Assembly: GCA_001724265.1 (NCBI GenBank)
Contig: MEDY01000659.1
Coordinates: forward strand, 1-64,000
Direction of reading: 5' to 3'
Length of the DNA stretch: 64,000 nt
Source: Rhizaria sp. SCN 62-66
Lineage: Eukaryota
The position numbers were made by a program, and so were the translations under genes. The first letter of the stretch is position 1. Each line of letters begins with the position of its first letter. A model generated the notes under the pieces. It had not been told where the DNA came from. It worked only from the letters and a program-made list of their open reading frames with translations, and searched no databases. This document shows positions 804 through 62,901 of the stretch, in pieces.

Positions 804-1270
804 CTGCGGTCGGGCCAGTCCTTATCCACGTAACTCGCTGCCTATTCAGTCAGATATCCTCAATTGTGTTTAGTTTATTGAAAATTCTGGCAGGGATTTC
901 AATATGGCAAGATATTTTATAATAGAAAAGCGTATTATACGTAATATGGCATGAATAAAGGAGCAGTAAATTCTAATAAAATCTATTTTAATGACTCTTT
1001 CGTGAGTGATTTGCTATTTGTCAGAATGAGGCACCTGTGCGAAAGTATTGATGCTTATTGTCAAAACAAAAGGGAGTAATCCTTTTAGTTTAAGGTATGA
1101 ACCTGGACATTTGTTCGGTTATATCTGCTCAATTCACGTGAGATGAGCACCCGTCAGCTTGTTGCTGGTGTTTTAATGAAAGAGTGTAAATAAACGAACG
1201 TAGGCGACAACAACTTTTCTGTTTTTTTCTGTTTTTTTCTGTTTTTTTTTTAAGCTCGAATTGACGTTAC

Positions 1271-3076
1271 ATGCTCAACATGAATAAGTACCAGAACGCT
1301 GTTCAAGCTGCGCTATCTCTGTGCCCCCAACTCTCGCTTGAGGGAGTGAACGAACTCGGACGTGTCTATTCGCAGAGTCAGTCCGAAGATGAGGACAACG
1401 CTGAGTTCAAAGATGTGATCGATGAGGACGTGTTCGTAGCACTGGCCTCTAACATTGCTATGCCGCTCTGTGAAGATCACATGTCGACCATGCGTCGTCT
1501 CTTTGCGACTCTCCAGGTGTTCACGTGTCCTGTCGTGCTGACCTGTGACCGGGGCTACAAAGCCGTGGTCGCTGCGGGCTGCTTCGAGGCTGTTCTCAAC
1601 TGTGTCGCAGCGCCCGGCGCGACCCTGCACACTGACGGTCCTCACTATGCTCAATATCAGTCCCTTGTCGATGTGAGCAGGTACGCCGCGCGCTCGCTGG
1701 AGACAATGTTGCTGTACTTAAACGATTGCTCTGCACTTGTCGAGTCTGGCTTCTTCGCCACACTTCTGTCCGCAACTTAGGTGGACAGTGACGCATTTCC
1801 TCTGTTGGCACTCGCTGTGCGGGCGATCGTCGAGCGCATTCCGCTGCAGTCTTACACCGTTGTGCGCGCTGCGCTGCCTGTGCTCACGCGCGCTCTCAAG
1901 CAACACGAAGCTCCCCTCGAGCACTCGCATGTGGACCCAGACATTCTCGTATTGCAAGTCTTGACAACGTTGCGCACGCTCTTTGACGTGAGCTCGTGCA
2001 AAAGCGACCTCGCTGATCTCACCTCTTCGTCTCTGTGGCCTACGCTTGTGGCGCTGCTTGACTAGCCCGCAGTGCGCGTGACTGCGCTGAGCGTGCTCGG
2101 GCTGCCCGCCGCCGCCGCCGCCGCAGGGCTGCGCTCGGTGGCCGCCGTCGCACTGCGGTGCTACTCGCCCGCTCTGCTATCATAGCTCTGCGCACTGGCG
2201 GGACTGCCCGCGGCCGAGTGGCGGCAGGTCGCGCCTGAGCTGCTCAACCTGCTCGCAGACGCGGCCTCCGCGGCGCCGGCGCTCGCTGAGAGGATTGTGG
2301 CGGTGCGCGCCGTTGATATCTTGTCGCCAGCGCTGCCGTTAACCCTAGGAAACAATCTGGACCTGCCGTGTGACTCGCGATGGATTGTTGCCGCTGCGTA
2401 TGCGCGCTTGATGCTGAGGCTGCTTGAGCGTCCCATGTGTGGCAACGGCAACGGGCGGACTAACGTCGCGAACAGCGCCTTCTATGTTGGAAACCTGTCC
2501 GCCGACGCTGCTGGCGCTGGCAACAACGGGGGCGCAGATGACTGGAGCGATAGCGGCGACAGCTGGGCCACAGGCAACGACGATGACAGCGGTTATGGCG
2601 AAGCCGGTGACTGCCCCGAAAGCGGTGGCCCCGCGCTACGCAATCCGGGGGCGTGGGTTGACGCGCGCGCAGAGCCCTACAGCGCAGCGCAAATGGTGGC
2701 CGCGGCGACGCAGCTGCTGCGCACAGGCGCAGTGCGCTACGCGGTGGACGCGATCCGCATTGGTGCCGGCGCGTTGTCTGCGATGGCCTGGGCAGCGTGC
2801 GAGCGTCTCGCCTTGATGCTCACTGCTCTCCTGCGGGTTGGCGCGGGCGCTGATCCAGATCAAAGCGACGATGACGCTGTGTCTGTGCGAAACCAGGTGC
2901 TGGCACAGTTCTTTGACGCCGGTGGCCGGGATGTGCTGACCACGCGTGCACTTGATGTGTATGGGCTCCATGCCCGTGCTGCCGCGTTTGCGTTGGCGAT
3001 GAGGCGGATGGCAACTCTTGTGCGAAGTCTTGCGCCACTGGATGACGATGCACGAGATTTACCTGGCGATATTTAA
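1271..3076 (+). CDS. ARM/HEAT-like helical protein, 601 aa if three in-frame TAG codons are read as sense
   Basis: ORFs 1271-1780, 1781-2065, the 2066-2296 stretch and 2297-3076 share one frame. They are separated only by TAG at 1778, 2063 and 2183, and the frame ends in TAA. ARM-like segments: AVVAAGCFEAVLNCV, ALVESGFFATLLS, LWPTLVALLD*PAVRVTALSVLG. Confidence 0.7.
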
Positions 3077-16250: not shown

Positions 16251-17108
16251 TGGGGGCGCAGATGTGTGCGTCTGCGTGGTGTACGCTGCACCCGAATAAA
16301 ACTAAGATTGAGGTAGCTGTCCGCCACCAGGGTTTGGACGTGAAGAGTCCATTGTGAAAGAGGACGCAAGTCAAAAAAGAATTGCGTGCTGTTTACAGGT
16401 AGAAACATAAGAAAATAAACATATCCGTGTGAGTCAAATTATGCGACATTAAAATAATGCCGTGAGACGAATGATTAGGTAGGTGACGAGTGACTCTTCC
16501 TCCAACTAAAAGTCGTAGATTATTTCACTGCATGTACACATTATGCCGACTTCTGCTTCAAATGCTAAAAAATGATCAGATACAGTACATGCTGAAGTCT
16601 GTTGAACATTTAAGGAGCCAGTTAAACAAAATGCGATTGGCGCACGGTAGTTCTTCGAAAATGTGCAACTTAGACTATCAGCTCGCGCCCCCAAGCTCAG
16701 CAATCATCCACGTCGGCCTGCTCCGCAAACTGGAGAAAAGTCTTTCGCGGCAAAATAAACATTATTCTCTCTGAAACTCTGATATAATATACGAAACGCA
16801 ATGAATAAAAACATCTTGTGATTTTGTATATAGTAGAGTCGTTTTCAGCACTCAAAGGCAAAGCGCGAGATATCTAAGGGGGATGAGTCAGAAACCCTTT
16901 CAATTAACTTCGACGACATCTACCCTAAAATGCGCGCAATGAAGGCAAAGAATACTAAATATTCACAGGGTTCCGCAACTAAGTAACACAGGTAAAGCAA
17001 CTGGCAAAATTTAACGACAGCGCCACGCGGAAATATCATTCAAAGGGCGAGGTACTTACACTGGATGATGAAGCCTGCTCACGGTCATCATGGTCATTCC
17101 ATGCTCTA

Positions 17109-27600: not shown

Positions 27601-28999
27601 GCGCGTACGTCGACTGGTGGGGGGCCTGCGTGATCATCTGCTTCTGCTGAGACAGCGACGCCGACGACGGCTGTGACTGTGCGGTGGTGCGTTGTTGCGG
27701 GGCTGTTGCTCTGGCGCGGTGGCTAGGCGCGGAGACGGGACCGCTGATGCTCGCGCGCGCAGGCTGCCACCGGGTATGGTCCCGCCACAAAGCACTTACA
27801 GTACTCGCACCGCTCACACTCGCGGCACTTAAACTCGCAGCACTTACATGCGCACTGTCTGTTGCGGCTGTAAGTGTGCGGCGGTACAGCGCGGCCGCGC
27901 TGGCCCCACCGGAGGGGGACACGGAGGCGGATGGAGCAGTCGGGAGTGCGATCACGGCGCCACTGCCCAGTCCGCGCTTGCCAGAGTTCCCGCCGCTGCT
28001 GTTATGATAGCTATTGTTGTTGTTGTTCATGAAGCCACTGGCGCTGAGTCCTGAGAGCTGCGCAGTGTCGCCAAAGCCGGAGCCGTAGCCGCTCACACTA
28101 GCATTGGTGTTGTTGTTGTTATTGCTGCTGTTGCGGAGCTTCCGGGGAACGACCGGCGACGTCGGCGGCGCATAGCCAGTGAGTGCACTCAGCTTGCTGC
28201 CGCCCGCACCGAGGCCGAGCGCCGTGTTGGCGGCTGTAAAATCGCCGTGGCCGAAGCTAGAAACAGGACGCACAATGCCGCCCCCGCCGTAGAGCGACGC
28301 AGTGCGTGAAGCTGATGTTGAAACGGGGAACGGGCCGTCTAGGTCGTCGTAGGCGCCCACGAGCACTGCAGCAGCCGCCGCCGCAGCCGCCGCAGCCGCT
28401 TCAGTAGCAGAGGCGACATGTTCGTTCACTGCGGTGTAGTGATAGCGCGGCAATGCACCAGCAGCGATAGTGGCAGCGGCTGCGGTTGAGGTAGACTGCC
28501 GGGGCATGTCATCGTCGGCTGCAATGTTGAGCGAAAGCGCACCGATGCCAGAGCTGCCACTACTGTTCGCAACCTGAGCAGACTTGGTGGGCAATGGGGA
28601 GTGTGAGTGTGGGTGTAGCTGTGTGTCGTGAAGTAGAGACGCAACGACGTTAAGCGCGCCGTACTCGGACGCAGGCGCGGCCACGTTGTTGTTGTTGTCG
28701 TCGTCATCGTCGTCGTTGTTGTCGCTGCCCAAGCTAGAGCCAGTGGACGGGAGCGAGCTGCTGTTTGAGGGCGCTGTGAACACCATGCCTTGTGCAGTCG
28801 CCGCTGCGGTAAACAAGTTGCCGGTAGCCAAATCCACGTCACCGGGCGCAGCGACAGCGCCGGACGCGACAGCGCTCGACGCGACAGTGCCGGACGTGAC
28901 GGCGCTTGACGATGAGGTGTCGCTCGCGGCAGCCTTTTTTTTTGCGGGCGCCGTGAAACTGAGCTTGTACTGGCTCAGGGGAGGGGCACGCGGGGGCAT
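21641..28999 (-). CDS. F-box-containing multi-pass membrane protein, Ala-rich
   Basis: 2452-aa ORF. F-box-like LPDHILLLTSSFLPPLAILALSATCTRLREAV...IW at about 27170-27310, followed by roughly 8-10 hydrophobic segments. Stop TAA. Confidence 0.7.
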   Translation of the reverse strand: MPPRAPPLSQYKLSFTAPAKKKAAASDTSSSSAVTSGTVASSAVASGAVAAPGDVDLATGNLFTAAATAQGMVFTAPSNSSSLPSTGSSLGSDNNDDDDDDNNNNVAAPASEYGALNVVASLLHDTQLHPHSHSPLPTKSAQVANSSGSSGIGALSLNIAADDDMPRQSTSTAAAATIAAGALPRYHYTAVNEHVASATEAAAAAAAAAAAVLVGAYDDLDGPFPVSTSASRTASLYGGGGIVRPVSSFGHGDFTAANTALGLGAGGSKLSALTGYAPPTSPVVPRKLRNSSNNNNNTNASVSGYGSGFGDTAQLSGLSASGFMNNNNNSYHNSSGGNSGKRGLGSGAVIALPTAPSASVSPSGGASAAALYRRTLTAATDSAHVSAASLSAASVSGASTVSALWRDHTRWQPARASISGPVSAPSHRARATAPQQRTTAQSQPSSASLSQQKQMITQAPHQSTYARVMSLLSGSAKTASENSPAATEYGVVLGGFALTRPQFGHSNDSRADEDNDYENYDDSDDANCPTGPGWLRSSQTHNNGGGGGGRGGSALVPGLSFTALPDHILLLTSSFLPPLAILALSATCTRLREAVTQSPSFDQFIWRPLLLALHTHAPPAPTPVPVTTGTAMSTAGRAPPTVTAATRARVKVLVPAAVRAQDPVSRSVAALHRLAAVAGVLSARAAAIAEAMATLRAYRAASTNNNININNNSNDANGSNTSSTGDIRDHAVDSAVPVEVWAAATAGVPGCLVFDDTTQCQITADDALVNYNKNIKSDGSAKSPSSPAVAAAAAAAAAAASSLPPPPWRRPAYLLLPNTTWFAALATAATTSHPSLLTALSLSALRDAGVAAAGRAAARTVALAAVASVAIAVVAVVAGLGVGWSWPLWPTHIPSSRNKGSHGLNTGEPDGSDSTYFDTLPPLGRLLPLLLTLPLPLLAAAALAALAAERARWDARIAAALDEAVQGGELGAWLRAAQVWRGASVSALTRARSNAAFAATYEDDAGSAPRAVQSAAESDDDDGDESSDDNNNNNNSSNVASHRINDSANGSRSSGTKKNRRERRQTVPAPTHAYPHAYPHVYSHGPAAEPAPVAALCASVALDCGFFRDDVVSLPPALVETATRATAQLNDDNNDADADSSSSKPTTAETGTMVTVPAESATDLRSPASASPSAALAPGTAASASPPAWLCWLYPLATGASRAARDLFLLLLTLHCTVLLGQVLAAALAPPSGTASFIAAAAGAAPDADADSVAAAAASGVGKSARWRLGRALAAALTHNHTAATAGAAAMAAVAAAADDAAAAAADASHRCSPLLPALPRAGLLALPRNVLLFTVVAATVASLARGWPAAAAALRRGAAVAEAEADDARAAAAADAASLGLSDVSAAFGSSSSSSARVQAELVALGDWRPRRRANGATNATRHSSVTDDTLAEYDSDVNASDNDNDDGDHDNHDDDDDDDDDDDDDGDYADGALFSRRAGKANAMQREESEMIAARAAVAALTDARASRSVRLLAGATARAVTRTATCTPIGTGMRSGSDSVSLPASAYTEAEAVAAATGDVRRLVRARGSVAAAWDALGLAHLVAAIDASSATSPTPATAAGTELYPATDAVAAATAAAATAADPTFVPPPTPRPRRRLPASLSQSGSGSTAAAAAGQGFLARARATVGEFFPSPGRAWHPEPAAAPSLIAAAALSDLPSRSSHWRKSRHNSESHSTSASSSASPQSKSQSATAGFALSRRVIAATTTAPPLGTLYALWSAMATVCGLIGLWVVVVSPHGAQALAAPALVGLGRLFTPLHRPARAAAAADPSAASAAGLAVVGAEWSLTQKGLVAAALALWLITAAAKVPTWVGLVSLPFLRIRTRRTVNHTANHTVSGYKLAHSSDTNSSSSSSAASATVPVEKDGFVWGYARSAGARVQAYIWGQWARLPLATRSTNRSNCRSHSTHGSLSRLPSLPAPAASAAAAPRRSPWRALAREFALCVALPIALLLPVSLFPLPGPLSGPPGSLASALSPFSSSSSDVVVGGGAAAAGSHAVASESAAFSSAALLTVHFVAALGAWAVATRAAITVADERVRARDRGWWLAAFAYPFTAFASAGLLAARFHLFPSPFLTAAQQRVLAQQQLVLQQRHQHHTALHTHTAAVSSAAESQSAAAAAAAFALSSHVATEASLLFPALHSASMLVISLITPLALAFAAAGASWVVTVAHVHARATALRAAAPALRALTVVCGGWGQLETVIAAVQTAAVSDAIADTGADESAKLYFDSNGDPSPSASMSAHAGVSAANVEGCEAAAARVLGLSNGYAQTVATGAAAGAYAQYSSAGTTVGGAAGRAMSRAVGAHGHGHALSLSLGLGHGHSQGHGHNALPSSLFGGGHGGAGLSAAVLAGLQGAGARRIGGDVTASGSVTAGSVTASGSFNAGNSGSQRKAVGGVEGHALNALARAFE

Positions 29000-29449
29000 C
29001 TTCCAATGGAAAGAATCCCTGTTGGGTGGGTGTAAGGTTCCTGCGCTCGAGCGACTCGCTACGCCACTGGGTTCGAAGGAGAAGGGAGGCGAGAAAAGCC
29101 GTTAAGAAGGGGGTCGAGCAAACAAGACCTTAGCGCAATGACAACAACGCTAGTGCAAACAATATTGAAATTATATTGAAAAAACTAAATTTTCTACTGG
29201 ATGTGTCGCAGTATAATCAGTCTGACGACGTAGTTGACCAGAGTAGCTTCACAGAAGTTTGCCTTCAACATCCAGCACCATCCCCCACGAAGAAAAAGAA
29301 TACTGCATTTATATCGACGAGCATAAGCTTACATGCACACACAAAATCAGCTAAAAATGCGTTTTCTACAAACTCCAATGCATTTATTTGGGTATATTTC
29401 AACTCTGAGCTAATTGGTTCTCATAGTGTCTGTACACTGTCTGATCCCT

Positions 29450-40355: not shown

Positions 40356-40823
40356 TTACTGCTTGGAGGCGGGAGCGGGCGCCACGGCGGCGTCGGGAGC
40401 GTCAAACCAGGCGGGCATCTTGCGGTTGATCGGGGGGACCTCGCCGGTGCGCATCATGTACTCGCGGGCCTTGTACTCACGCTACGCACGAGAGTGGGCG
40501 AGCGCGGAGCGGGTTGTGCAAGAGATCGAGCATCATAGAACAAGACAGAACAAGAGAAGAAGCAAAGAAGATGAGGTTCGTTGGTAGGGAGCTAGAAGCA
40601 AGAGAGCAACAACGGCATGGATCTTGGGGAGAGAGAAAAAGCTAGGCTATTGTGAGAGAGTGGTGCGGTGGCGTACCATGAGGACCTGGCGCTGCTCGGT
40701 ATCAGAGAGGAGGTGGGTGTCGAAGAGGGCATCGAGACCGGTGGCGAGGTACTTGCGGCCGAGAATACCGGCGCCGAAGAGGCCACCCATGACCACGAGG
40801 GGGATGAACGTCTGAACAGGCAT
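40356..40823 (-). CDS. Small single-TM protein resembling complex I subunit NDUFA1 (MWFE), 90 aa; exons 40823-40677, 40481-40356
   Basis: MPVQTFIPLVVMGGLFGAGILGRKYL...LSDTEQRQVLM|REYKAREYMMRTG... joined by a phase-0 intron GTACGC...GCGTAG. From memory the pattern resembles fungal MWFE subunits. Stop TAA. Confidence 0.6.
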
Positions 40824-41128
40824 TCGAACCTGTGCGGGCAAAGTGTCAGAAGCGGGATCAGGAAGCAAGATAGGCAAGGGTGAACGTTGGAAGAGCATGG
40901 GCCAGGCGAACCGAGTTTGCACACAGGTGCTGGCATCCATCTAAGACAAGAAGTTTGACCGCCAATACGGCTAGCAGTGCACTCAGCGATCGCATATTGT
41001 ATAAAACACGACCAGTAGATATTAAACAAAAAGCCAATAAAATACTTGACGATCGGAAAAAGGCGCCAGAGACATCAGGAAGCGGCTGCCAGTCTGACCG
41101 CTGGAGAGCTGGCGGCTTACTTTCTACG

Positions 41129-47788: not shown

Positions 47789-47803
47789 NNNNNNNNNNNN
47801 NNN

Positions 47804-51093: not shown

Positions 51094-54000
51094 TCACTCT
51101 GCGTCGGGGATAGCACGGTAGAAGTCCTTGTTACTCGGCATGACCTGTCCGTGTTTCTTAGCAAACTCCGTGAGCACCACACGCCCCTGCTGCTCGCTCA
51201 GCACGCCCTGCTCCTGCGCCCACATCAGCACAGTGCGCAGCGTCGCCGTCGCACTGGGCGCGGCCGCCGTGGCCGCGCCGGGCGCCGCAGTGCCCGCGAC
51301 CTCGGCCGCAGCGTCGTCCTCAGCGGGCGTCATCATGAGAGACTGCCCCCGCAGGGTGACGTGGACTTCGCAGCTGGTCTTGACGCCCCAGGGCTCGCCA
51401 TCGACCTGGATCGGCAGCGGACCACGTGTGCGCACGACGGCAGACCGACCTTGTGCAAGTCGCAGCGGTGTCGTCAACCCCAGTTGGATCAGACCGACGT
51501 GGAGCGAGTCGCGGAAACCGATGAGCTCGAATAGGCCATCATCCATGCGCGGCTCGCTGAAGTGACGCCGGTCCGTCTCGGCGTGACCCCAGAAGTTGAT
51601 GCCGCCACCGAAAGATTTAATGTTGAGCAAGCACACGCCTTCCATGCCCGTGAGGTCGATTTTGACGCCGTCGATGAAGACTTCAGCGCCAGAGTCGCGG
51701 AGAACGCTCGGCGCGTGCGGGAAAAAGTACGATTCCGTGCCGAGGCGAGCGTACCAGGCCTTGTTGAAGAGCTGCGAAGTGAACAAGTGAGGATAGTGAG
51801 CGCGAAGAAGGTGGAACTTGTGCGCGATAACGGCGTCCAGGCCGATGCCGAGGTAGTTGTTCACCACGACTGCGCTGCTGCCGGTGCCGCGGGGACTGGG
51901 CGACACGATGGGGAAAATCGTCGACACCTTGCGCACGAGTCGCCATGTCTTAAGCCGTTGCCAGCAAGAGCCCGGGGACAGCTCCAGCACAACATCATCA
52001 TCGCCTTCGCCTTCATCACCGTCACTCGCGCGACGTTTGCGCTCGACCACAGCACCAGCAGCGTTATTGCTGTCCTTGTTATCACTCTTGTGAGCAGCGC
52101 TGTCATCCTTTTGCTCGTCGTTCTCATCAACACTGGCGTCGTTGTTATTGCTACTCTGCTTGCGGCGCGGGGCGGTTTTGCGTTTCGGCAGCGGTGTGCT
52201 GAGGCCCACCCGCCTGCTCGACGCAGACGGCGATGTAGTTGCAGTTGCGCCGCTGGGCTTCGCCGCCGTCGTCGTCGGTGTGCCTGCCTTGTTAGAGGCT
52301 GTCGCGTTGTCAAACGCTTCAGGCGCAAGCGGCTTGACCGTGGCATCCCAACGGTCAAGCACGCAGATACCGGAGCGGGAAACACGACGGAGAACGGTTA
52401 ACAGACCGGCGGTTTCCACAGAAGGAGCCTTGCGGCCCCAACCGAGCACCTGCGCCAGGTCGTTCCCGGTGCCAAGAGGCACCACGGCCACGGGAACCGG
52501 CCGGTTGAGCTTGTCGATAGCCGAGAGCACCCACGACACGGTTCCGTCGCCGCCGCAAACGACGACTTGCAGCCGCGGGACAGTGGCGAAGAGAGCGAGC
52601 GCGACTTCCGGCGCATGCTCGGCCAAATCCCAGACTTGGATCGGGTTGAGAAGCTCGGTGAACTCGTGCATAAGCTGCACGCCCATGTTACCGCCCGATT
52701 TACGGTTGATAAACACAAGCACGGGCGCGACTTCACGCGGCAGCTCAAAGCGCCACACGAGCGGCGTCGTAAGCAGCGCGTCTGTGCGCGGCAGAGTGGA
52801 CGCGACCGGCGGCAAACTGATGAAAGGAGACGCTAACACAGCCGCGGCAGATCGGAGAGGGTCCCATGACGCGTCGCCCGCGTTTGCGGTATTGCGTGCA
52901 GATGCAGTCGCGACAGGCGCAGTTGCGACAGGCGCAGTCGCGTTGGAAGACTCGGCCGCGGTTGCGAGAGCGGGTGAGAGAAGGTCGGCAACGGTCAACG
53001 CAGCGGGAAACGCGTGCTGCTGCTGCTGCTGCTGCTGTGCACCGCGCTTGAGGGAAGCAATGGCAAGGCGCGCGGTGGCAGCAGTGTAGCCCGGCGCAGG
53101 GAAAACGCACTGGGGCGGAACGATAAGGCGCGAGATAGGACCTACAGTGCATGCATAGAAGCAAAAGAAGAAGAACAAGCGTTAGAATAATTGCAATTTA
53201 AATAAAGTCAGGATGAGTTAACATACTATTCATAACTCATAGAAGTAGTCTTTGTTTTTGCTAACGTACCGCGGCGACAGAGGTCCCGATCGAGGTCCTT
53301 GAGCTAGCCAACGCAGTCCTCGTGTACGTGTGCACGACACCACAGACAGTGCAGTCCAGCCAGAGCGAAAAGACTGCCGGTGACTTCGCCGCACACGAGA
53401 CACACGTCGGAGACAGTAGAGTGGTTGCCGCGGACCCAGTGGTGCGGCTGCGGTGCAACAGTGGCGTTGCTGCAGTTGCTGCTGGCGCAACTGGGCGTGG
53501 CGCCCGTCACGTCCACAGCAGGCGCAGTTGCAGTCGCAGTCTCAGCCGCGCTATGGGCAGCGGTGTCGGTGTTATTGCTCTTAGCGGCCTTTGTTGAGCG
53601 GATCTTACTGTGAACGGCAACAGACACAGGCTCAGACTCCGCCTCAGCAGCAGAGGCGTTCGCTTCAGCGTCAGATTCGGCAGCAGCAGCTGGACTGCGA
53701 CTGCGGCCACGCGCACTCTTGCTCTTGCTCTTCCTCGCACCAGCCTCAGCCTTCGAAGCAACAGCAGCAGCAGCAGCCTCGGTCTCAGCACCAGCAGCGG
53801 CAGCGCGAGTGCGCGTGCGACGACCAGGCACGGCAGCGGCGGCAGCGGAAGCGGCCTCGGCGGCGGTTTCAGCTTCGAACTCAGCGGCCGCAGCGGCAGC
53901 AGTCTTGCGCTGCCGCGGCGCCACTTTTGCTTCGTTTTCAACATCAGCCTCAGCCTGCGCACGCGCGCGTGACTGCGAAGGCGCAGACCTTGACTGCGCG

Positions 54001-55058
54001 CGCGGCTTCGAAGGGGCGCGCGTGCGAGCGCGAGTGCGCAGAGTAGCTTCACTCTTCTCCTCACCAGCGTCAGAAGCAACATCACTATCCTTTGCGGCGT
54101 CAGTCTTAGTGTTGCTGTGAATGATATTGTTAGCGTTAGCGTGCCGGCGCAATGCTTCGAGCTCTGCCGCGGGCCAAGCGTCGGCCACGGCGCCACCGCG
54201 GGCACTCAACACAGCGTCGAACAGCGCACTGAGCGCCTCGATAGCGCGCGAAGGCCCGCCCGCGGCGGCTGCGGCTGCGGCGGCGGGAGAGTCAGCCGCA
54301 AGCACGTGCGTGGTGATTGTGCCGACAATCTTGCGCGGGCGCGCGGCAGCGGTCGCCATGGAGGCAGGAGTGAGCGCCTGCAGAAAGCCGGCGGCGTACT
54401 CGGCGGGGGTCGCCAGCGCTACTACAGCGGCCTCCGTGGCGCCGGCAACCTCAGAGTCTAACGCAGCAGCAGCGCAGGCCGCGGCGGAAGTGATAGAGCA
54501 AGCAGGTGCGGCGAGGCGCGCGGGGGACGCTGCGCGTGAGCTAGCAGTTGCTGATGTGTTAATGTTCACAAGTGCGGGGAACGCAGCCGGCTGGCGGCGG
54601 ACCGCTGTGACGGCGGTGGCAAAGACGGCGGCGTGGCGCGGCGTGGGGAAGAGCGCGATCGACTTGCAGTTGTGCTCGACAAAGGCGACGCAGCGCTCGT
54701 GTGTGGCGACACCGCAGACGTCGCAGCACAGTGCGCGCTCAGAGACGCCGAACATGCGCTGCGCACAGACGTTGCAGTACGCGGGACGCATGAGTAACCC
54801 AACTTCCTGGTGGTAAAATTGGTGCGGGTCCGCGGCGCCGGCGTGCAGCATGGCCTGGTAATAGGTGCCGTCAAGGTAGGGCTCAGAGAGCAAGATGGAG
54901 CGGCGCTGGCCGAAGCCCATGTAGCGGAATATGCGGTGGATCACCCAGACAGACACGAGCGCGAGCAGGATCTGCCACGGGTACTGCACAGCAATGCGGA
55001 ACAAACGGACGAAATCGTCCGTGAAGCTCCACACCGTGTTGACGACGTACTTAAGCAT
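51094..55058 (-). CDS. DGK: Diacylglycerol kinase (N-terminal TM, two C1 domains, catalytic and accessory domains), 1278 aa; exons 55058-53270, 53141-51094; one in-frame TAG at 53306-53304
   Basis: C1a HQF...CNVC...CDVCGVATHERC; C1b HHWVRGN...CLVC...CLWCRAHVHEDCVG*LKDLDRDLCRRG|PISRLIVPP; catalytic PVLVFINRKSGG, CGGDGTV, PLGTGNDL, NNYLGIGLDA and PIQVDGEPW. Stop TGA. Confidence 0.93.
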
Positions 55059-55702
55059 GCTGTGATCGAGGTGGTAGTGCGAAGAATTGTCCGAGCAAGC
55101 GGAGTCGGGTCGGGAGGCTCCAGGCGAAGAGCTTTACGGGGTTAGAGAGAGTGCGAGTCGCACACGCACGAACAAAACCGTTAGAAGTGTCACGCTGCGG
55201 TCAGAAAACCTCGCACGAGAGCGACGGACGGCGGCCTGAGACGTGCAAAGGGAGGGGGAGAGGTGCGAGTTTGCGACTGCAACGGATATCAGCACGGAAG
55301 TGCAAAAAGATAAGCACATTTGGCCTATTTATGAGCTCTGGTAATAAATAGTAATACATTGTCAAGTATAACATATTATAACACTGTTTTTATAAAAGAA
55401 TAACGACTGACGCATGCACGCATTCGTGTTTGAATTCCTCTCTCTGTCAGAGCTGTTGCGGTAGTCACGGTCCAACTGAATGTCACGCTGAGCGCAATAA
55501 CGGGTCCTTGGTTCAATAGTTTGTTTATGTATCACTAAATTATTCTTGATAGACAATAAATTTTCTTTACTTTTGTGCAATATTCATTTCTGTTTTGTTT
55601 GACTTCTTCTATAGCAAGCAGAGCGAGGCTGAGCTCAGCCGAGACAGGAGTACCAATTTGCACTACGCAAGTTGTGTTCGACCGTCTGATCCGTCAGTCA
55701 CC

Positions 55703-57424: not shown

Positions 57425-58128
57425 AGCAACCGCTCTACGTAGAGAAGGAGCAACAAGGGAAGGAAAAGCAAAAGAGTGGAGCGAGATACAGAGTGTGATG
57501 AAGGTGAGTTCCGTTGAATGACTGAGCAAAGCAAAGGTGGACGAGAGACTTAGGCGGGCAAGCAGAGTGACAGCCAAGGTATAGGATACAACGACAAGCA
57601 AATCCAACATCCATAAAGTGCAGAGTACAATGGCGTGACTGATTTGTGAGCGAGTGTGCACGATGAGTCCCACGAGAGGGATACTGGTGACACGAAGGTC
57701 TGGACTTGCTCTCAACGACCTCACGAGAGATCACACACCTCAATCGAGCGGTATTCACTCTCTGCAGGGCATACAAATAAATGTCCAACGAGATCCACTC
57801 ATAATCACACCCATCAAAGCAAAGGCAGTCATATCCACTGACGCTAGCACGAGAGCAACCTCCTCTTCAGCGCTGACCACAATTTCATCCAACGAGCGAT
57901 CTCTTCTCGCGGTCGAGTTGGTCTTTTTTCGGAACCAGGCAAGCAGTCACCGAAAGTCAAGTTCAGGAGAGGCAAGCAGCGCTTGTCAGACAGAGTTTGA
58001 GGTCAGTGCTAGCGTCAAATAACGGGTTGTCATAATTTTTAGGGATGCCATGTTTTTTCATCACTGTTTCTCTTTTAACGTTTGTTCACTTTGCTTCCTT
58101 GGTCTCTCTTTTCAGACTTCCATCTTGC

Positions 58129-61100
58129 ATGGACTCTTCGCCCAGGACCGCCTCGAGCGATTGGGAAGGGCTCCACGACGCCGTCGCGCGGCTCTTCATG
58201 CACTCTGTTGGCAGAGTCGTCGTGCTTCCGGACACTGAATTTGCGCGCGATATAAACTTGTCGGCGCTGCTGCAGCTGTTACCACTCGCCTCACCGCACC
58301 AGGTGCGCACTTGGTTTCGTGAAGCTTACGATACTCTGGCCCCCTCGGCTGAGGCGCCCAAGTTGGAGCGCGGCCGGCCCGCCGAAGAGCTGTCGTTTCA
58401 CTTCACCTTCTGCCTGGTTCTCACTTCCCAGGTTGTGAACACTTACGCCGCGCACTTCCACTGCGCGCAAGGAACCGTGCCAAATCGCAAAACTGTCACG
58501 ATGTGCTTCGCGCACGCTGTCGCCGCACAGTGCGAGCGTGCGGCGCGGTTTCTCGCCGTCGCGCCTATCGCAAGCATCCCCGCCTCGGCCGTTACTGCGC
58601 TGACTCTCGGGCCCTGGTTTAGAGCCACTGTCTCACCGGCCGCTTTTCTCTACATCCACGTGCACCTCGCCGTCTCCCCGCACTTTCCCTCCCCCTCCCC
58701 GTCGCACATGACACAACAGCAGCAGTCCAACTCCTCCTCGTCGTCGAGCGGCGCTGGTGCTGGTTCCGGGAGTGCGTCGACACGTGCGTTGCGCGCTGCA
58801 CCGCCCGCGCGCCTGTGGCATGCGCCGTGGTGGCTAGCTGCGCTCTTCCGTGCATCGCGTACTTTCAACCACCAAATCTCTCAGCACCGGAGGCTCACTT
58901 CCCCAACGTCGACATCGGCGTCAACGCAGCAGCAGCAGCAGTCTCACAGCGATCAGCAGTTTGACAGCGGGTTTAGCGCGGTGACAGCTCAGTTGAACGC
59001 GAACGCTGGTTCGGTCGCAAACAACTCAGCCAGCGCTTACTCTGGTGGTTCTAGCGCAAGTTCTGGATCCGGCGGTGTCGGTTTACTGGGGCACGCAAGC
59101 CGCGCAGTGAGCGCCGCCAAGGTGACCGCCACCCTCGGCGCCACTCAGATTGTGCGGTTTGACGCGCAGACGCTGCTTGACGCCGCTGCCGGGTTCACAG
59201 TCGGCGGGACAGCACCCACGGTTGTGGCTGCGGCGGACGCGGTGGGCGCGGTCGCGGCCGCTGCGAACGCCGCTGCGCAAGCTGCGGCCGAGAGGGCTGC
59301 TGTTGCTAGGGCTGCCACTACGACCGCTTTTGCTGTCGCTGACGCCGCTGGTTCTGGTGCTGGTGGTGGTGCTGGTGGTGGTGCACTTCCTACTGCTGCT
59401 GATGCTGCTGCTGCTGGCACTGGCGCTGGCGCTGGCACGAGTATAGCTGGCGCTGGCACGACTACTGCCGCCGGCGCGCCGGCGAGCGATGCTGACGACG
59501 CTGCGAGCGCCGACGCCGACGCACTGAAAGCTGCCACTGCTGCTGCTAAGATCGAGGCCGATGCCGATTACGAGGCCGCATGTGCTTTCGCTGCCGCTGC
59601 GCGCGTGGCAGAATCTGCGGCCGTGGCTTCGGTCACGTTTGACCTGGGCCGCTGCGCGCTCTTTTCGCCGCCCAGTGTTGCCGCCACACCGGCCGCAAGC
59701 GCTGCTCCGAGTGGGGCTGTGGCTGTGGCTGCGGCTGCGGGGACTGCGGGCGCGGGGACCGCGGGCGCGGGCCGCGCGCGCAGACCGGCGACGGGCGCGC
59801 TGGTGGGCCCGCAGCCGCCGCAGCCGATGTCGACGCTGCAGGCGCAGTCGCACGCACAGCAGGAACAGGACCAGACCGAGTGGGCGACCAAGGCGCAGTC
59901 GCAGGTTCAGCCGCCGTCGCAGCTGCCGCCCCAGGCGGAGGCCGAGACCGAGCTCGAGCTGAGCGCGCTGTCCCCGTCGCCGTACACGTCTCCTGCGCTC
60001 GCGAACAAACTGCCCCACGCACAGGCGCCCCCGCTTACGCCGGGCTTTGTTCCCGCCGCAGCCCCTTCGCTGCGCAACAACGCTGGCAGTCGGGGCTTTG
60101 GTGCCGCTGCTCACCCTGCGTCTGCGACCGCGCCTGCGGCTGCGGCTGCGAATGGAAGTGCTGGCTGCGGTGGCGGCGCGTTCACGATGCCGCTGCCGCT
60201 ACCGCTGCCGATGCCGATGCCGCTGTCGCCGCGCGTTGTCCCGTCGTCTTCTCTGCCGTCCTCTTCCTCATCATCGTCGCTATCATCATCGCTGCCGCTG
60301 TCGCCGCCGAGCAGCGGACTCAGCAATAGTGCGACGACGAGTGTGACTGCTGTCGCGACTCGTAGCGGTGACGGCGGCGGTGCACCGGGCAGCGCCTTTG
60401 ACTCCTTATTCGCCTTTGCTGCCGTTGCCGAGTTCCACTCGTGTTTCCGGCGCAAGTTCGCCACCCCGCGGCAGGGCGCGCTGACGCCGCACTCGCGCGG
60501 TGTCGTCTCGCTGCGGCCCGGGGTCGAACACACCGTCTGGGAAGGAATCACTTCTTTCTCGCACGTCTGGCTTGTGTATGTATTCGACTGCAATACGCCG
60601 CAGTCGGACACGCGCACTGTCGCCAACGCGAACGGTGTTGCCGCACAGCCAGTCATTGGCGCCGCTGCAGCGACAGCGGCGACTGCGGCGCTCGGCGGGT
60701 CACCGGCGCTGCCTGTGCGCGTCGCAACCGCACTGCGCACGAAAGTTAAGCCGCCGAAGCTCGGAGGCCGCGCGACGGGCGCCTTTGCGACGCGCGCGCC
60801 GCACCGGCCGAACCCAATTGGGCTCACGCTCGTTAAGGTTGAAGGGCTTATCCCTGGTGCGAACGGCTCGGCGCAGCGGTTGCTGGTGTCCGGCGTTGAC
60901 CTTATCGACGGCACGCCGATTCTTGATGTTAAGCCGTATCACCCCGCGGACTGCCCGCTGCCGCTGCCGCTGACTGCGATGAGCCAGCAGCAGCCGAGCA
61001 TGCCGTCGAGCCAACAACAGATGAGCGCGGGGAGCGAATCACAGCTGCGGTTTCCGTCTTGGATTTCGTCTCAGTTCCATGTCCCACAGACCTGGGGCCG

Positions 61101-62901
61101 CGGTTTCTCAGTGCTGGAGCAGCCGTTATCGGGCACTGGCAACGGCGCTGTGACAGGCAACGCTGTGGCTGCGTTACCGGCGTATTCGCAGTCGCATTCG
61201 CTGTCGCCGTTGCGCCCCCACGGCGCGCAGAGCAAAGAACCGATGGGCGCTGCGATTCCCAGCGTCGGCGACTACGAGAGCGAAACCGATGGCAAGGGCA
61301 ATGACACAGCAGCGACTGCTGCTGCAGGTGGTGCAGGGGCTGGGGCTGGGGCGCTTCCGACGCCCACGCTGACGGCTGCGTCGTCACTCCAGTCGCCGCA
61401 GTCGCTGCAGTCGACGCCCTCGCTCCCAGTCGCCGACACTGACACGGCCGCCGCAAGCACGCTTGTTCCACCAGCTGGCGCGGCGCCGCTGGCGAGAACA
61501 CGCAGCGAGCCCACGCCAGCGGCGATCAACACAGCGCTCGCACAGGACCCCACGGCCGCGATTGGTGGCGACAGCGGCGGCGGGGACCGTGTGGCGCACT
61601 TGCTGTCAACGCCGACTGTCGCCGTGTTTGCGCTCGACTCCGCGCTCGTGTCGCTCCGCGAGCTCTTCAAGGCCTCGCGCCTTCATGGCAGCGGTGGCGG
61701 CAGCGGCAGTGGCAATGGCAATAGCGGCGGCGCAACGCCCAGCGGCGGATTGAGGGGCCGGAGTCTGAACGGTGGTGGCGGCGGCGGCGTCGGCGGCAGT
61801 GGCGCCAACTGCAGTGTCGGCGACAGCCCCAGTCTCACGCCTCTGGCTCACGGCCGCCGCATCTGTCTCTTGCAACAACAGCAACAGCAGCAGCAGCAGT
61901 TTGACACGCCAGGGCAGACGCCCGCGTTCTTGCCGCTCAACAGTAGCAACGCATCAGGCAGTGGCAGCATCGGCAGCAGACAGCGTCCACTGGAATTCTT
62001 CTGTCTGCCGACTGATACGGCCGTTATGGTGCTGCAGTGCGCCTGCGAGGTTTTGGCCGCAGACCCGCGCAGTGTGCATACAGTGCGCAAGTTCGGCGAC
62101 CGCTCTGTATTTGCCTTTGAGATGGACAACTTAGTGATCACTTTCGTCATGCGCGATGTCCCTGTGCTTCAAAACAACAGTGACAGCGGCTGCGACAGTG
62201 CTAATACGGGCGCGCAGGCTATGGAGGACGACGGAGCGTCTGCTTCTTCTGCAACCGCGAGTTTGAGTGCGGTGGCGGCAGTGCAGACAGCTTTTGGTCT
62301 GGACACACCGTTTGTCTCTCGTACTGCTTCCTCTGCTGTTCAGAGTAGCACGACTGGCGTTGCGTCAGTCGCGCACGCAGTCATATCGTCCATCGAGCAC
62401 GTCCTCGGTCCTCTGCCTTCCAGCGCTGGCTCGAGCGCGGCCGGGCAGTCCCGTCGCGTTCCCGCGCCCCCTGCTGGTGTCAGCGCAAGTACAAGTGCGT
62501 GTGTTAGTCCGAGCGCTTTTGCTACTGCTTCTCCTGCCGCAGGCAAGATGCCAGTGTCTGGGTTGGACGGCGACTGCGACAGCCGCGACTGCGACGGCGC
62601 TACTACCTCCAGCGCCACTGACGCAGGAACAGGTTCAGCCGCGCGGACTCCTAACTTCCCGTCGCCGATTCTGCCGTCTTCCACACTGCAGCGCAACATC
62701 AGCGGCAGCAGTAGCGGCAGCGGCGGCGGCAGTAAGGCTGCGATTGGCACGCCCGCGTTTGCGGCCACGCCGGCGCCGTATATCGCTGCTAGTGGCGCGT
62801 TTGCGGCCGCTGCGCCTGGTCTGCGCACCAGCGCGTGGCTTAAGACGTCTGGCAACGCCGCTGTGCGCGCAGTTATGTTGGCTCTAGGTTTGTCTGACTA
62901 A
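58129..62901 (+). CDS. TRMO: Large protein containing a TrmO/TsaA tRNA (adenine37-N6) methyltransferase domain
   Basis: SCFRRKFATPRQG, FSHVWLVYVF, KVKPPKLGG, GAFATRAPHRPNPIGLTLVK and VSGVDLIDGTPILDVKPY (about 60410-60950), with a C-terminal EVLAADPRS. Start taken as ATG 58129. Stop TAA. Confidence 0.88.
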   Translation: MDSSPRTASSDWEGLHDAVARLFMHSVGRVVVLPDTEFARDINLSALLQLLPLASPHQVRTWFREAYDTLAPSAEAPKLERGRPAEELSFHFTFCLVLTSQVVNTYAAHFHCAQGTVPNRKTVTMCFAHAVAAQCERAARFLAVAPIASIPASAVTALTLGPWFRATVSPAAFLYIHVHLAVSPHFPSPSPSHMTQQQQSNSSSSSSGAGAGSGSASTRALRAAPPARLWHAPWWLAALFRASRTFNHQISQHRRLTSPTSTSASTQQQQQSHSDQQFDSGFSAVTAQLNANAGSVANNSASAYSGGSSASSGSGGVGLLGHASRAVSAAKVTATLGATQIVRFDAQTLLDAAAGFTVGGTAPTVVAAADAVGAVAAAANAAAQAAAERAAVARAATTTAFAVADAAGSGAGGGAGGGALPTAADAAAAGTGAGAGTSIAGAGTTTAAGAPASDADDAASADADALKAATAAAKIEADADYEAACAFAAAARVAESAAVASVTFDLGRCALFSPPSVAATPAASAAPSGAVAVAAAAGTAGAGTAGAGRARRPATGALVGPQPPQPMSTLQAQSHAQQEQDQTEWATKAQSQVQPPSQLPPQAEAETELELSALSPSPYTSPALANKLPHAQAPPLTPGFVPAAAPSLRNNAGSRGFGAAAHPASATAPAAAAANGSAGCGGGAFTMPLPLPLPMPMPLSPRVVPSSSLPSSSSSSSLSSSLPLSPPSSGLSNSATTSVTAVATRSGDGGGAPGSAFDSLFAFAAVAEFHSCFRRKFATPRQGALTPHSRGVVSLRPGVEHTVWEGITSFSHVWLVYVFDCNTPQSDTRTVANANGVAAQPVIGAAAATAATAALGGSPALPVRVATALRTKVKPPKLGGRATGAFATRAPHRPNPIGLTLVKVEGLIPGANGSAQRLLVSGVDLIDGTPILDVKPYHPADCPLPLPLTAMSQQQPSMPSSQQQMSAGSESQLRFPSWISSQFHVPQTWGRGFSVLEQPLSGTGNGAVTGNAVAALPAYSQSHSLSPLRPHGAQSKEPMGAAIPSVGDYESETDGKGNDTAATAAAGGAGAGAGALPTPTLTAASSLQSPQSLQSTPSLPVADTDTAAASTLVPPAGAAPLARTRSEPTPAAINTALAQDPTAAIGGDSGGGDRVAHLLSTPTVAVFALDSALVSLRELFKASRLHGSGGGSGSGNGNSGGATPSGGLRGRSLNGGGGGGVGGSGANCSVGDSPSLTPLAHGRRICLLQQQQQQQQQFDTPGQTPAFLPLNSSNASGSGSIGSRQRPLEFFCLPTDTAVMVLQCACEVLAADPRSVHTVRKFGDRSVFAFEMDNLVITFVMRDVPVLQNNSDSGCDSANTGAQAMEDDGASASSATASLSAVAAVQTAFGLDTPFVSRTASSAVQSSTTGVASVAHAVISSIEHVLGPLPSSAGSSAAGQSRRVPAPPAGVSASTSACVSPSAFATASPAAGKMPVSGLDGDCDSRDCDGATTSSATDAGTGSAARTPNFPSPILPSSTLQRNISGSSSGSGGGSKAAIGTPAFAATPAPYIAASGAFAAAAPGLRTSAWLKTSGNAAVRAVMLALGLSD

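What the first reader, a model, noticed from the sequence alone, without database searches (positions are those of the whole stretch)
53270..53340. In-frame TAG inside the second C1 zinc finger of diacylglycerol kinase
Seen: ...CLWCRAHVHEDCVG-TAG-LKDLDRDLCRRG, then a canonical GTACGT...TGTAG intron (53269-53142) leading in frame to PISRLIVPPQCV and an intact kinase domain. Known: C1 domains need the final Cys, and DGKs continue CxxG(P)xxxLIxPP. Both lie downstream of the TAG, with an 11-residue C-to-C spacing like the one I recall for plant DGK1. An intron ending at this TAG would be 9 nt long or would delete zinc ligands. This is the strongest single piece of evidence for UAG decoding.
Basis: partly seen in the sequence, partly recalled or inferred. 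Interest (0 to 1): 0.85.

Follow-up and report, generated by a model that had tools for sequence, protein, structure and literature searches.

The report
In-frame UAG in a protist kinase gene
A diacylglycerol kinase gene of an uncultured wastewater protist carries a real TAG codon inside a zinc-finger domain, and the window as a whole suggests that this organism reads UAG as an amino acid and not as a stop.

Summary
A two-exon, minus-strand diacylglycerol kinase (DGK) gene (ATG 55058, stop TGA 51096-51094) has one in-frame TAG at 53306-53304. It lies in the variable loop of the second C1 domain, upstream of the last zinc-binding Cys, the LIVPP linker and the whole kinase domain. The closest relative aligns across it without a gap (51 of 62 identical) and has His at that column.

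The TAG is not an assembly error. DNA contigs from a second study and four database contigs carry it.

Three other results point the same way:
- None of 16 gene terminators in the window is TAG (8 TGA, 8 TAA).
- An orphan 603-codon ORF (1265-3076) has 3 TAG but no TAA or TGA in frame.
- A 50%-identical relative with a standard code ends 3 of 7 genes, its DGK included, with TAG.

The host is a GC-rich, intron-poor eukaryote. A single-gene MCM7 tree places it near filosan Cercozoa.

My best reading, at confidence 0.7, is that UAG is a rare sense codon here. The amino acid is unknown, and no tRNA(CUA), eRF1 or spliced mRNA could be examined. UAG-only reassignments are already known (rhizarian exLh, Iotanema, some ciliates), so this would be a new member of a known kind.

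The parts
53270..55058 (-). DGK exon 1 (ATG at 55058; 1789 nt, ends in phase 1). It holds an N-terminal hydrophobic segment, C1 domain 1, a long Ala-rich linker and C1 domain 2.
   Evidence: gene model. (C1_1, E 8.2e-15, 2 stretches). The N-terminus and C1 regions match P0003.
54663..54824 (-). C1 domain 1 (residues 79-132).
   Evidence: best C1_1 stretch 79-132, profile 1-51 of 53.
53277..53444 (-). C1 domain 2 (His539 to the final Cys594), interrupted by the TAG at codon 585.
   Evidence: C1_1, 36.3 bits, profile 1-47 of 53 with read-through. (51 of 62 identical to P0003, no gaps).
53304..53306 (-). In-frame TAG (codon 585), in the loop between HxxC and the last Cys of C1 domain 2.
   Evidence: It aligns with His547 of P0003. 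Present in contigs of X2/X3 and X4 with 0 differences and on 4 database contigs.
53142..53269 (-). Spliceosomal intron, 128 nt, AT-rich, GTACGT...TGTAG, phase 1.
   Evidence: Three relatives (P0003, P0004, L003) read straight through CxxG-xxxRL(I/L)xPP with no insertion here. The same GTACGT donor occurs at other inferred introns. Splicing was not seen in RNA: the one RNA contig here is unspliced.
51094..53141 (-). DGK exon 2: linker PISRLIVPP, catalytic and accessory kinase domains, stop TGA at 51096-51094.
   Evidence: (DAGK_cat E 6.5e-26; DAGK_acc E 3.1e-43). (720 homologues at E<=0.001 among 7,999 candidates scored).
52420..52725 (-). DAGK_cat domain (exon-2 residues 139-240).
51391..51867 (-). 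DAGK_acc domain (exon-2 residues 425-583).
1265..3076 (+). Orphan 603-codon ORF with three in-frame TAG (1778-1780, 2063-2065, 2183-2185), ending in TAA. It is supporting evidence for TAG read as sense.
   Evidence: 0 TAA, 3 TAG, 0 TGA in frame; the other five frames have 4-28 TAA+TGA. (best coding frame in all six 300-nt bins from 1201 to 3000). (the TAGs sit in GC-rich, non-intron-like sequence). (no family, no homologue other than its own fragments). (fragments bounded by the TAGs on up to 7 contigs).
16302..16304 (-). In-frame TAG 16 codons after the first ATG of the 2236-codon ORF 9660-16370. It is ambiguous: either a sense codon, or the stop of a short upstream ORF ahead of a later start.

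Best explanation
In this organism UAG does not act as a stop codon. It is translated as an amino acid, presumably by a tRNA with anticodon CUA, while UAA and UGA terminate.

The organism is an uncultured, GC-rich, intron-poor eukaryote from wastewater and bioreactor metagenomes. A single-gene tree places it near filosan Cercozoa.

The TAG at 53306-53304 therefore encodes one residue in a variable, probably surface-exposed loop of the second C1 zinc finger of a full-length 1278-residue diacylglycerol kinase. Translation runs on through the last zinc-binding Cys, across the spliced intron, and into the kinase domain.

Shown here:
- The codon is real and in frame.
- Homology continues across it without a gap.
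- The gene is otherwise intact.
- TAG is absent from all 16 terminators in the window.
- A second ORF tolerates TAG but not TAA or TGA.

Inferred:
- That the change is genome-wide.
- That a tRNA(CUA) and/or an altered eRF1 exists.
- Which amino acid is inserted. Gln or Tyr fit the one aligned column (His in the nearest relative) with fewest changes. Leu is the precedent in Rhizaria. None of these is tested.

UAG is very rare as a sense codon: 1 in 12,413 confidently coding codons, plus 3 in the weakly biased orphan ORF. That fits a recent or inefficiently decoded reassignment.
For: 1. Gene anatomy. TAG is codon 585 of a 1278-codon model with C1_1 (two stretches), DAGK_cat and DAGK_acc.

2. Homology across the codon. 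Window residues 535-596 against P0003 residues 497-558 give 51 of 62 identical with 0 gaps, and the TAG lies opposite His547. The 12 codons after the TAG keep the frame and the final Cys, and exon 2 is 65% identical to P0003 in alignment A1.

3. Cutting at the TAG truncates the C1 profile match (1-43 of 53, against 1-47 of 53 with read-through). It also leaves the kinase domain without a usable start (read).

4. The codon is reproducible. There are 0 other letters in the X2/X3 and X4 contigs. The TAG-terminated fragment is on 4 contigs and has no longer variant.

5. Terminators: 8 TGA, 8 TAA and 0 TAG in 16 genes, each followed by lower-GC sequence. P(0 of 16) is 0.028 if TAG were 20% of stops and 1.3e-4 at the relative's 3 of 7.

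6. ORF 1265-3076 has 0 TAA, 3 TAG and 0 TGA in 603 codons. It is the best coding frame in 6 of 6 bins, and the other five frames show no comparable open frame (TAA/TGA-free runs of 64-246 codons against 603). P(no TAA/TGA in 603 non-frame codons) is 1.6e-5. Three nonsense hits by neutral decay would imply about 123 substitutions, and an unbroken frame would then have probability 1.7e-2 to 4.7e-6 depending on the assumed indel rate.

7. Control. The relative L001 (DGK 50% identical, GC 52%) ends 3 of 7 genes, its DGK included, with TAG.

8. Precedent. UAG-only reassignment with UAA/UGA kept as stops is documented in a rhizarian (exLh, Leu) and in Iotanema (Gln) (PMC5304391, passages read).
Against: - Only one of the four or five in-frame TAGs lies in a gene with homologues, and it sits at a non-conserved column of a loop whose length varies from 7 to 59 in 65 DGKs. 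The amino acid cannot be inferred, and a null allele would look the same.
- ORF 1265-3076 is an orphan: no Pfam family and no homologue in two large searches. That it is a gene rests on statistics alone.
- TAG use is very uneven: 3 in 603 codons there against 1 in 12,413 elsewhere.
- Sixteen terminators is a small sample. At a 10% TAG share, 0 of 16 has P = 0.19.
- There is no tRNA or other Rfam hit in the window, no eRF1, and no whole genome.
- The one RNA contig over the site (53101-53310) is unspliced and ends 4 nt past the TAG. No spliced joint was seen.
- All assemblies are essentially one clone (0 differences; one amino-acid variant). Recurrence of the TAG across runs is therefore not evolutionary conservation.
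- None of the 72 related DGK loci has an in-frame TAG inside a DGK alignment.
Confidence: 0.7

Rival explanations
1. Nonsense allele. The standard code applies and this clonal lineage carries a recent premature stop that truncates DGK after 584 residues. The downstream part has not yet decayed.
For: All assemblies look like one clone, so a fixed null allele would give the same picture. TAG is the commonest product of random nonsense substitutions in this codon usage (59% for the DGK sequence). The site is at a non-conserved column.
Against: Exon 2 (681 codons) and the 12 codons after the TAG are intact and conserved. This reading does not explain 0 of 16 TAG terminators. It also does not explain a second ORF with three TAG, no TAA or TGA, and no frameshift.
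Confidence: 0.12
2. Site-specific leaky termination. UAG is still a stop in this organism, but it is read through at this site and a few others by near-cognate tRNAs, helped by context.
For: Three of the five in-frame TAGs are followed by C (TAG-CTC twice, TAG-CCC), against 3 of 17 listed TAA/TGA stops, of which 11 are followed by a purine. That C after a stop codon is the leakiest context in eukaryotes is my recollection, not a tool result. TAG is extremely rare in coding frames.
Against: Read-through in the middle of a zinc finger of an essential-looking enzyme would yield mostly truncated protein. No known read-through motif (such as CUAG after the stop, or CARYYA; recalled) follows the TAG. 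The absence of TAG from 16 terminators is unexplained. The difference in context is not significant with these numbers.
Confidence: 0.1
3. The TAG is removed or changed in the mRNA, either by non-canonical splicing or by RNA editing (for example U to C, giving CAG).
For: No spliced transcript was seen, so the mature mRNA sequence is unobserved.
Against: The only GT..AG pair ending on the TAG is 9 nt long. Phase-compatible upstream donors delete zinc ligands, and the sequence around the TAG is GC-rich coding sequence unlike the AT-rich introns here. The one contig from the RNA library that covers the site carries TAG unchanged. Removing the codon would break the gapless 62-residue alignment with P0003.
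Confidence: 0.04
4. Sequencing or assembly error in the source contig.
For: None found.
Against: The same letters occur in contigs of X2/X3 and of X4 from a different study ten years later. The TAG-bounded protein fragments occur on 4 to 7 contigs from several sources.
Confidence: 0.01

Closest known systems
Rhizarian exLh nuclear code (UAG = Leu; UAA and UGA stops), Panek et al. 2017, PMC5304391 (passages read)
   Same: Only UAG is affected and UAA and UGA remain terminators. There, bona fide stops were 56 UAA and 15 UGA with 0 UAG; here they are 8 TAA and 8 TGA with 0 TAG. The host is a rhizarian. UAG is rarer in strongly codon-biased genes.
   Different: exLh has 384 in-frame UAG in 71 genes, about 5 per gene. 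Here there are 4-5 in about 16 genes and 1 in 12,413 confident codons. There the amino acid (Leu) was established at conserved columns; here it is unknown. Kinship with Sainouroidea was not tested, because no sainouroid sequence was in my MCM7 tree. exLh lives in an insect, whereas this organism comes from wastewater reactors.
Iotanema spirale (Fornicata) nuclear code, UAG = Gln with UAA kept as stop (same paper)
   Same: A UAG-only stop-to-sense change, with tRNA(CUA) as the predicted mechanism. Gln would fit the single aligned column (His in the relative) with few changes.
   Different: A different supergroup (Metamonada) and frequent UAG use. The amino acid is not determined here.
UAG reassignments in phyllopharyngean ciliates (PMC11687900) and the ciliate PL0344, where UAA and UAG differ (PMC10553269). 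For both I saw only the search listing and the start of the abstract.
   Same: The meaning of UAG is uncoupled from that of UAA.
   Different: Those are ciliates with AT-rich genomes. I did not read the details.
Eukaryotic diacylglycerol kinases with two C1 domains; nearest is the metagenomic protein P0003 (1064 aa)
   Same: The same architecture and order: an N-terminal hydrophobic segment, C1, a linker, C1 with an 11-residue last loop, CRRG-PxxRLIxPP, then DAGK_cat and DAGK_acc.
   Different: The window gene has a TAG where P0003 has His, and a 128-nt intron that P0003, P0004 and L003 lack.

Membership tests
Eukaryotic diacylglycerol kinase (C1-containing DGK) | DAGK catalytic domain (PF00781) followed by the DAGK accessory domain (PF00609) | tested here: met
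   DAGK_cat E 6.5e-26 (90.8 bits, cut-off 23.6); DAGK_acc E 3.1e-43 (148.3 bits, cut-off 27).
Eukaryotic diacylglycerol kinase (C1-containing DGK) | Two C1 zinc fingers N-terminal to the kinase domain, the second followed by CxxG...(I/L/V)(I/L/V)xP | tested here: met
   C1_1, 2 stretches; second C1, 36.3 bits. The motif is present in 65 of 121 stored homologues by pattern and in the window only if the TAG is read through.
Eukaryotic diacylglycerol kinase (C1-containing DGK) | Kinase activity on diacylglycerol | not testable with these tools
   This needs expression and an enzyme assay.
Nuclear genetic code with UAG reassigned from stop to sense | In-frame UAG inside conserved genes, aligned to sense codons of orthologues | tested here: met
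   Met for 1 gene (DGK), with His in P0003 at that column. The other 3-4 in-frame TAGs are in ORFs without usable homologues.
Nuclear genetic code with UAG reassigned from stop to sense | UAG absent from bona fide termination sites | tested here: met
   0 of 16 terminators are TAG (8 TGA, 8 TAA). The sample is small. The control relative L001 has 3 of 7 TAG.
Nuclear genetic code with UAG reassigned from stop to sense | A consistent amino acid at conserved alignment columns opposite UAG | tested here: inconclusive
   Only one aligned column, and it is variable: His in P0003, with unalignable loops of other lengths in P0004 and L003.
Nuclear genetic code with UAG reassigned from stop to sense | A cognate tRNA with anticodon CUA | not testable with these tools
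   No tRNA in the window, no Rfam hit, and no genome held.
Nuclear genetic code with UAG reassigned from stop to sense | Altered eRF1 stop-codon recognition | not testable with these tools
   eRF1 is not in the window and no further contigs of the organism could be fetched.
Nuclear genetic code with UAG reassigned from stop to sense | UAG present in mature mRNA and translated | tested here: inconclusive
   One contig from a polyA RNA library carries the TAG but is unspliced and may be DNA or pre-mRNA. There are no peptide data.

The most novel reading that the evidence does not exclude
This is a second, independent UAG reassignment within Rhizaria, caught at an early stage. UAG has been purged from every termination site but has so far returned at only about 0.03% of codons, concentrated in a weakly biased young gene. 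It is decoded by a tRNA(CUA) whose amino acid differs from the Leu of the exLh lineage, or still by near-cognate tRNAs because eRF1 has lost UAG recognition. That would be a natural snapshot of a codon between 'unassigned' and 'captured' in a free-living, environmentally abundant protist.
Probability: 0.3. Interest if true: 0.8.

Novelty: new member of a known kind. Interest (0 to 1): 0.66.

Why it matters
Changes to the nuclear genetic code are rare in eukaryotes. Cases where UAG changes meaning while UAA stays a stop are rarer still: the paper I read names one rhizarian and one fornicate, and two listed papers add some ciliates.

A further case would add a data point on how stop codons are captured. 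This one would come from a GC-rich protist that recurs in wastewater reactors over ten years, with UAG still extremely rare as a sense codon.

There is also a practical side. Gene callers run with the standard code split this organism's genes at TAG: the DGK is on record as a 584-aa piece and a 694-aa piece. Eukaryotic bins from such metagenomes would therefore be mis-annotated.

Tried and rejected
**Tools and data that were not available**
- No whole genome is held for the window.
- ARAGORN found no tRNA and Rfam found nothing at gathering thresholds. The tRNA(CUA) question could therefore not be addressed.
- Genome contigs: two related-loci runs and one DNA search got no answer from the machine.
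- Viral contigs: 0 exact matches to a 40-nt stretch of the gene.
- The protein-atlas search turned the ORF 1265 translation away because it holds X. I did not pursue it.
- Supplementary files of papers were not consulted.

**ORF 1265-3076 remains an orphan**
- No Pfam family.
- No hit among 8,000 candidates scored.
- Only its own three fragments among 1.84 billion representatives.
- The residues opposite its three TAGs therefore cannot be read from relatives.

**RNA evidence (run X5)**
- The contig over the site is unspliced, and no joint across 53142-53269 was seen.
- 12 of the 30 bins of the stretch have no RNA cover.
- This neither shows nor excludes splicing or two transcripts.
- The many short 'joints' near 53757-53900 in table 5 have sides of 20-23 letters in a low-complexity Ala-coding stretch. 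I disregarded them as repeat artefacts.

**Tests that could not be run**
No DNA of the nearest relative (P0003) was retrievable, the next relatives are 50-69% identical in protein, and the population shows 0 nucleotide differences.

**Other in-frame TAGs examined and dismissed**
- 624 and 507 lie upstream of the cytochrome c1 start.
- 44647, 44527, 45392 and 46701 lie in AT-rich introns or at acceptor sites of MCM7 and KTI12.
- 40649 and 40484 lie in the intron of a small gene.
- 40871 lies upstream of the L32-like gene's coding segment.
- In-frame TAA at 31120, 49444 and 49573 lie in GTACGT-type introns or leader sequence.

**Cautions and corrections**
- The long plus-strand ORF 5458-8704, with 12 TAG, is the antisense shadow of the real gene 3492-9260. 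It shows that TAG-only interruption alone proves nothing. ORF 1265 has no such partner on the opposite strand.
- My first codon-usage training set was out of frame. I discarded it and redid it.
- timed out and was repeated.
- One search used a wrong frame and was repeated.
- The careful MCM7 tree did not finish, so the quick tree is reported.
Full report
**1. What is at the coordinates**

On the minus strand the window reads ...CLWCRAHVHEDCVG TAG LKDLDRDLCRR G|GTACGT.... Building the gene gives these parts:
- ATG at 55058.
- Exon 1 at 55058-53270 (1789 nt, ending in phase 1).
- A 128-nt AT-rich intron at 53269-53142 (GTACGT...TGTAG).
- Exon 2 at 53141-51094, ending in TGA.
- A product of 1278 residues, with the TAG (window 53304-53306) as codon 585.

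Pfam finds C1_1 (two stretches) in exon 1, and DAGK_cat (E 6.5e-26) and DAGK_acc (E 3.1e-43) in exon 2. On the second C1 alone, the C1_1 profile is matched over positions 1-47 of 53 when the TAG is read through and 1-43 of 53 when the protein is cut there. The end of the zinc finger, with its last Cys, lies beyond the TAG.

**2. Homology runs straight across the codon**

A search with exon 2 returned 720 homologues at E<=0.001 among 7,999 candidates scored.

The nearest is P0003, an unnamed metagenomic protein of 1064 aa. It has the same architecture from the N-terminus onward. BLASTP of exon 1 against it aligns residues 535-596 with 497-558. That is 51 of 62 identical with no gap, and the TAG lies opposite His547: window CVG-TAG-LKDLDRDLCRR, relative CVA-H-LREHDHDFCRR.

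P0003, P0004 and the locus L003 all read CxxG-xxxRL(I/L)xPP without interruption. The window's 128-nt insertion is therefore an intron, placed exactly so as to restore that motif.

The loop that holds the TAG is variable. Among the 65 of 121 stored homologues that match the motif pattern, its length ranges from 7 to 59 residues (7 in 33, 16 in 14, 11 in 2, P0003 included). The column says little about which amino acid is meant.

**3. Can the TAG be spliced out or be an error?**

The only GT..AG pair ending on the TAG is 9 nt long (GTTGGCTAG). Upstream donors in the required phase fall in the Cys and Arg codons of the zinc finger and would delete ligands. A donor at GTTGGC joined to the known acceptor gives the wrong frame (read). 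The sequence around the TAG is GC-rich coding sequence, unlike the AT-rich introns of this genome with their GTACGT donors.

The DNA evidence agrees:
- Contigs of runs X2 and X3 cover the site. Their records are identical and are probably one data set.
- A contig of X4, from another study in 2025, covers it too.
- All lie on 52617-53895 with 0 other letters.
- The 584-aa product ending at the TAG is on record from 4 contigs and has no longer cluster mate.

The codon is real DNA. However, these samples hold essentially one clone, with 0 nucleotide differences and one amino-acid variant in ORF 1265 fragments. Recurrence is reproducibility, not conservation. Contigs also cannot exclude a minor allele.

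**4. RNA**

A polyA metatranscriptome (X5) gives short low-depth contigs on parts of the gene. One of them, at 53101-53310, carries the TAG unchanged, but it also carries the whole intron and ends 4 nt past the TAG. No spliced joint was found. This neither shows nor excludes splicing. It is nonetheless implausible, because the first Met of exon 2 lies inside the catalytic domain.

**5. The rest of the window**

I listed all frames open with respect to TAA and TGA and scored them with a codon model trained on 12,413 confidently coding codons. That set contains a single TAG, the DGK one.

*Terminators.* Sixteen genes can be delimited: 8 end in TGA, 8 in TAA, and 0 in TAG. Each stop is followed by lower-GC sequence. 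For one gene, 21056-17111, the TGA at 18276 is followed by 81% GC sequence, so I counted the TAA at 17111 instead. No open frame has a TAG where its coding signal ends. P(0 of 16) is 0.19, 0.028 and 0.0033 for TAG shares of 10, 20 and 30%.

*A second gene-like ORF.* ORF 1265-3076 is the only long frame in a GC-rich block between AT-rich spacers.
- It has 0 TAA, 3 TAG and 0 TGA in 603 codons. The other five frames have 4 to 28 TAA+TGA.
- It is the best-scoring frame in all six 300-nt bins.
- Its TAGs sit in 53-81% GC sequence with no intron signals.
- In non-coding frames of this genome, TAA+TGA occur at 1.8% of codons, so 603 codons free of them by chance has P = 1.6e-5.
- Under neutral decay, three nonsense hits would imply about 123 substitutions, and an unbroken frame would be unlikely (1.7e-2 to 4.7e-6, depending on the assumed indel rate).
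- Its TAG-bounded fragments recur on up to 7 contigs.
- Its weakness is that it is an orphan: no Pfam family, no hit among 8,000 candidates scored, and only its own fragments among 1.84 billion representatives.

*A fifth TAG.* The TAG at 16304 lies 16 codons after the first ATG of a 2236-codon ORF and is ambiguous.

*TAGs dismissed.* All other in-frame TAGs fall in introns, at acceptor sites or upstream of starts.

*A caution.* The antisense shadow of a real gene (5458-8704, 12 TAG, no TAA or TGA for 1082 codons) shows that TAG-only interruption can arise without any code change. ORF 1265 has no gene on its opposite strand.

**6. A control from a relative**

Locus L001 is a 21-kb piece of a 155-kb metagenomic contig. 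Its DGK is 50% identical and its GC is 52%. It ends its DGK, a protein kinase and a third gene with TAG, which is 3 of 7 genes. That relative therefore uses the standard code and uses TAG often. At that share, 0 of 16 would have P = 1.3e-4.

Among the 72 related loci fetched, none has a stop codon in frame inside a genuine DGK alignment. The 15 in-alignment stop codons found are 12 TGA in low-complexity alignments of L053, and one TAG, one TGA and one TAA that all fall in an alignment gap of L024.

**7. Who is the host?**

The window comes from metagenomes. Runs holding it are labelled bioreactor, wastewater and activated sludge, from 2015 to 2025. It encodes MCM7, RPN5, KTI12, a DnaJ protein, cytochrome c1 and spliceosomal introns, so it is nuclear eukaryotic DNA.

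The best named MCM7 hits are Paulinella and Mataza, both cercozoans, at 55-57% identity. Unnamed metagenomic proteins reach 75%.

I built a quick maximum-likelihood tree of 35 rows: the window plus 34 of the 120 listed hits, namely the named ones and the closest unnamed ones. The careful search did not finish. In this tree the window sits in a fully supported clade of six unnamed sequences. That clade forms a 97% SH-aLRT split together with the Mataza/Paulinella group.

This is a single-gene placement and should be read as 'probably a filosan cercozoan relative'. The best named DGK hit is also a rhizarian, Lotharella.

**8. What is known**

Panek et al. 2017 (PMC5304391; passages read) describe two nuclear codes in which only UAG changed.
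- The rhizarian exLh reads UAG as Leu. It has 384 in-frame UAG in 71 genes, and its terminators are 56 UAA and 15 UGA.
- Iotanema spirale reads UAG as Gln.
- The authors predict tRNA(CUA) as the only possible decoder.
- They found that Guttulinopsis and Rosculus most likely keep UAG as a stop.

Further UAG reassignments are reported in ciliates (PMC11687900 and PMC10553269; search listing and start of abstract only).

Three full-text searches returned no paper that links a code change with a cercozoan other than exLh, or with an activated-sludge eukaryote, judging from the titles and abstract openings of the papers listed (15 of 25, 20 of 389 and 12 of 22). The terms were: exLh/UAG/Rhizaria; genetic code/UAG/Cercozoa/reassignment; and activated sludge/eukaryotic/metagenome-assembled/Cercozoa/stop codon. 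The library is incomplete, and supplements were not consulted.

**9. Verdict**

The most economical account of all the observations is that UAG is a rare sense codon in this organism while UAA and UGA terminate. Those observations are an intact, conserved DGK with one in-frame TAG, no TAG terminators, an ORF that excludes TAA and TGA but not TAG, and a standard-code relative that uses TAG freely. I put this at 0.7.

The main rivals are:
- A recent null allele of DGK in a clonal population (0.12).
- Context-dependent read-through under an otherwise standard code (0.10).
- Removal or editing of the codon in mRNA (0.04).
- Sequencing or assembly error (0.01).

The amino acid is open. His at the aligned column is one step from Gln (CAG) or Tyr (TAY) codons, which are themselves one step from TAG. 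Leu has the rhizarian precedent.

TAG use is very low and uneven. If the reassignment is real, it is young or inefficiently decoded.

As a kind of thing it is known, so I rate it a new member of a known kind. Interest is moderate to high, because a fuller genome would settle it quickly and the organism is accessible in reactors.

Noticed in passing
window 47789-47803: A run of 15 N sits inside a (CT)n-like microsatellite that translates as LSLSLS... between KTI12 exons. It is an assembly gap in a simple repeat.
   Followed up: no
window 17109-21056, minus strand: One gene seems to run through three overlapping open frames (21056-19272, 19365-18274, 18536-17109). The TGA at 18276 is followed by 81% GC coding-like sequence, so there is either an unrecognised intron or a frameshift. 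The last frame ends TAA immediately followed by TAG.
   Followed up: partly
window, both strands (e.g. 31106, 49400, 53269, 46771, 45402): Introns are short and AT-rich and begin with a very uniform GTACGT. The hexamer occurs 30 times in the window, and several occurrences coincide with breaks in coding frames.
   Followed up: partly
window 3492-9260, 9660-16370, 21641-29101, 58036-62901: Four very long single-exon ORFs (1922, 2236, 2486 and 1621 codons) are rich in Ala/Ser/Gln low-complexity sequence. I did not run Pfam on these four.
   Followed up: no
window 5458-8704, plus strand: This is an antisense shadow ORF of 1082 codons, free of TAA and TGA but holding 12 TAG, opposite the real gene 3492-9260. 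It warns that TAG-only interruption can be a by-product of codon bias on the other strand.
   Followed up: yes
window 53101-53310 (RNA run X5): The only contig from the polyA RNA library over the DGK intron is unspliced. Other short RNA-library contigs lie in the DGK leader (54944-55150) and in the spacer toward RPN5 (55245 onward). They could be pre-mRNA, UTRs or DNA carry-over.
   Followed up: partly
L001 (metagenome contig, 155 kb), 9122-12007 and flanks: A relative's DGK (P0004) lies beside an oxidosqualene-cyclase-like gene and a PCI-domain gene. This organism uses TAG as a terminator in 3 of 7 genes, so any code change arose after the split from it.
   Followed up: partly
window 40356-40900, minus strand: A small two-exon gene encodes a short protein with one hydrophobic helix (MPVQTFIPLVVMGG...) and ends in TAA. 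It may be a small mitochondrial membrane subunit. Its intron holds two TAG.
   Followed up: no
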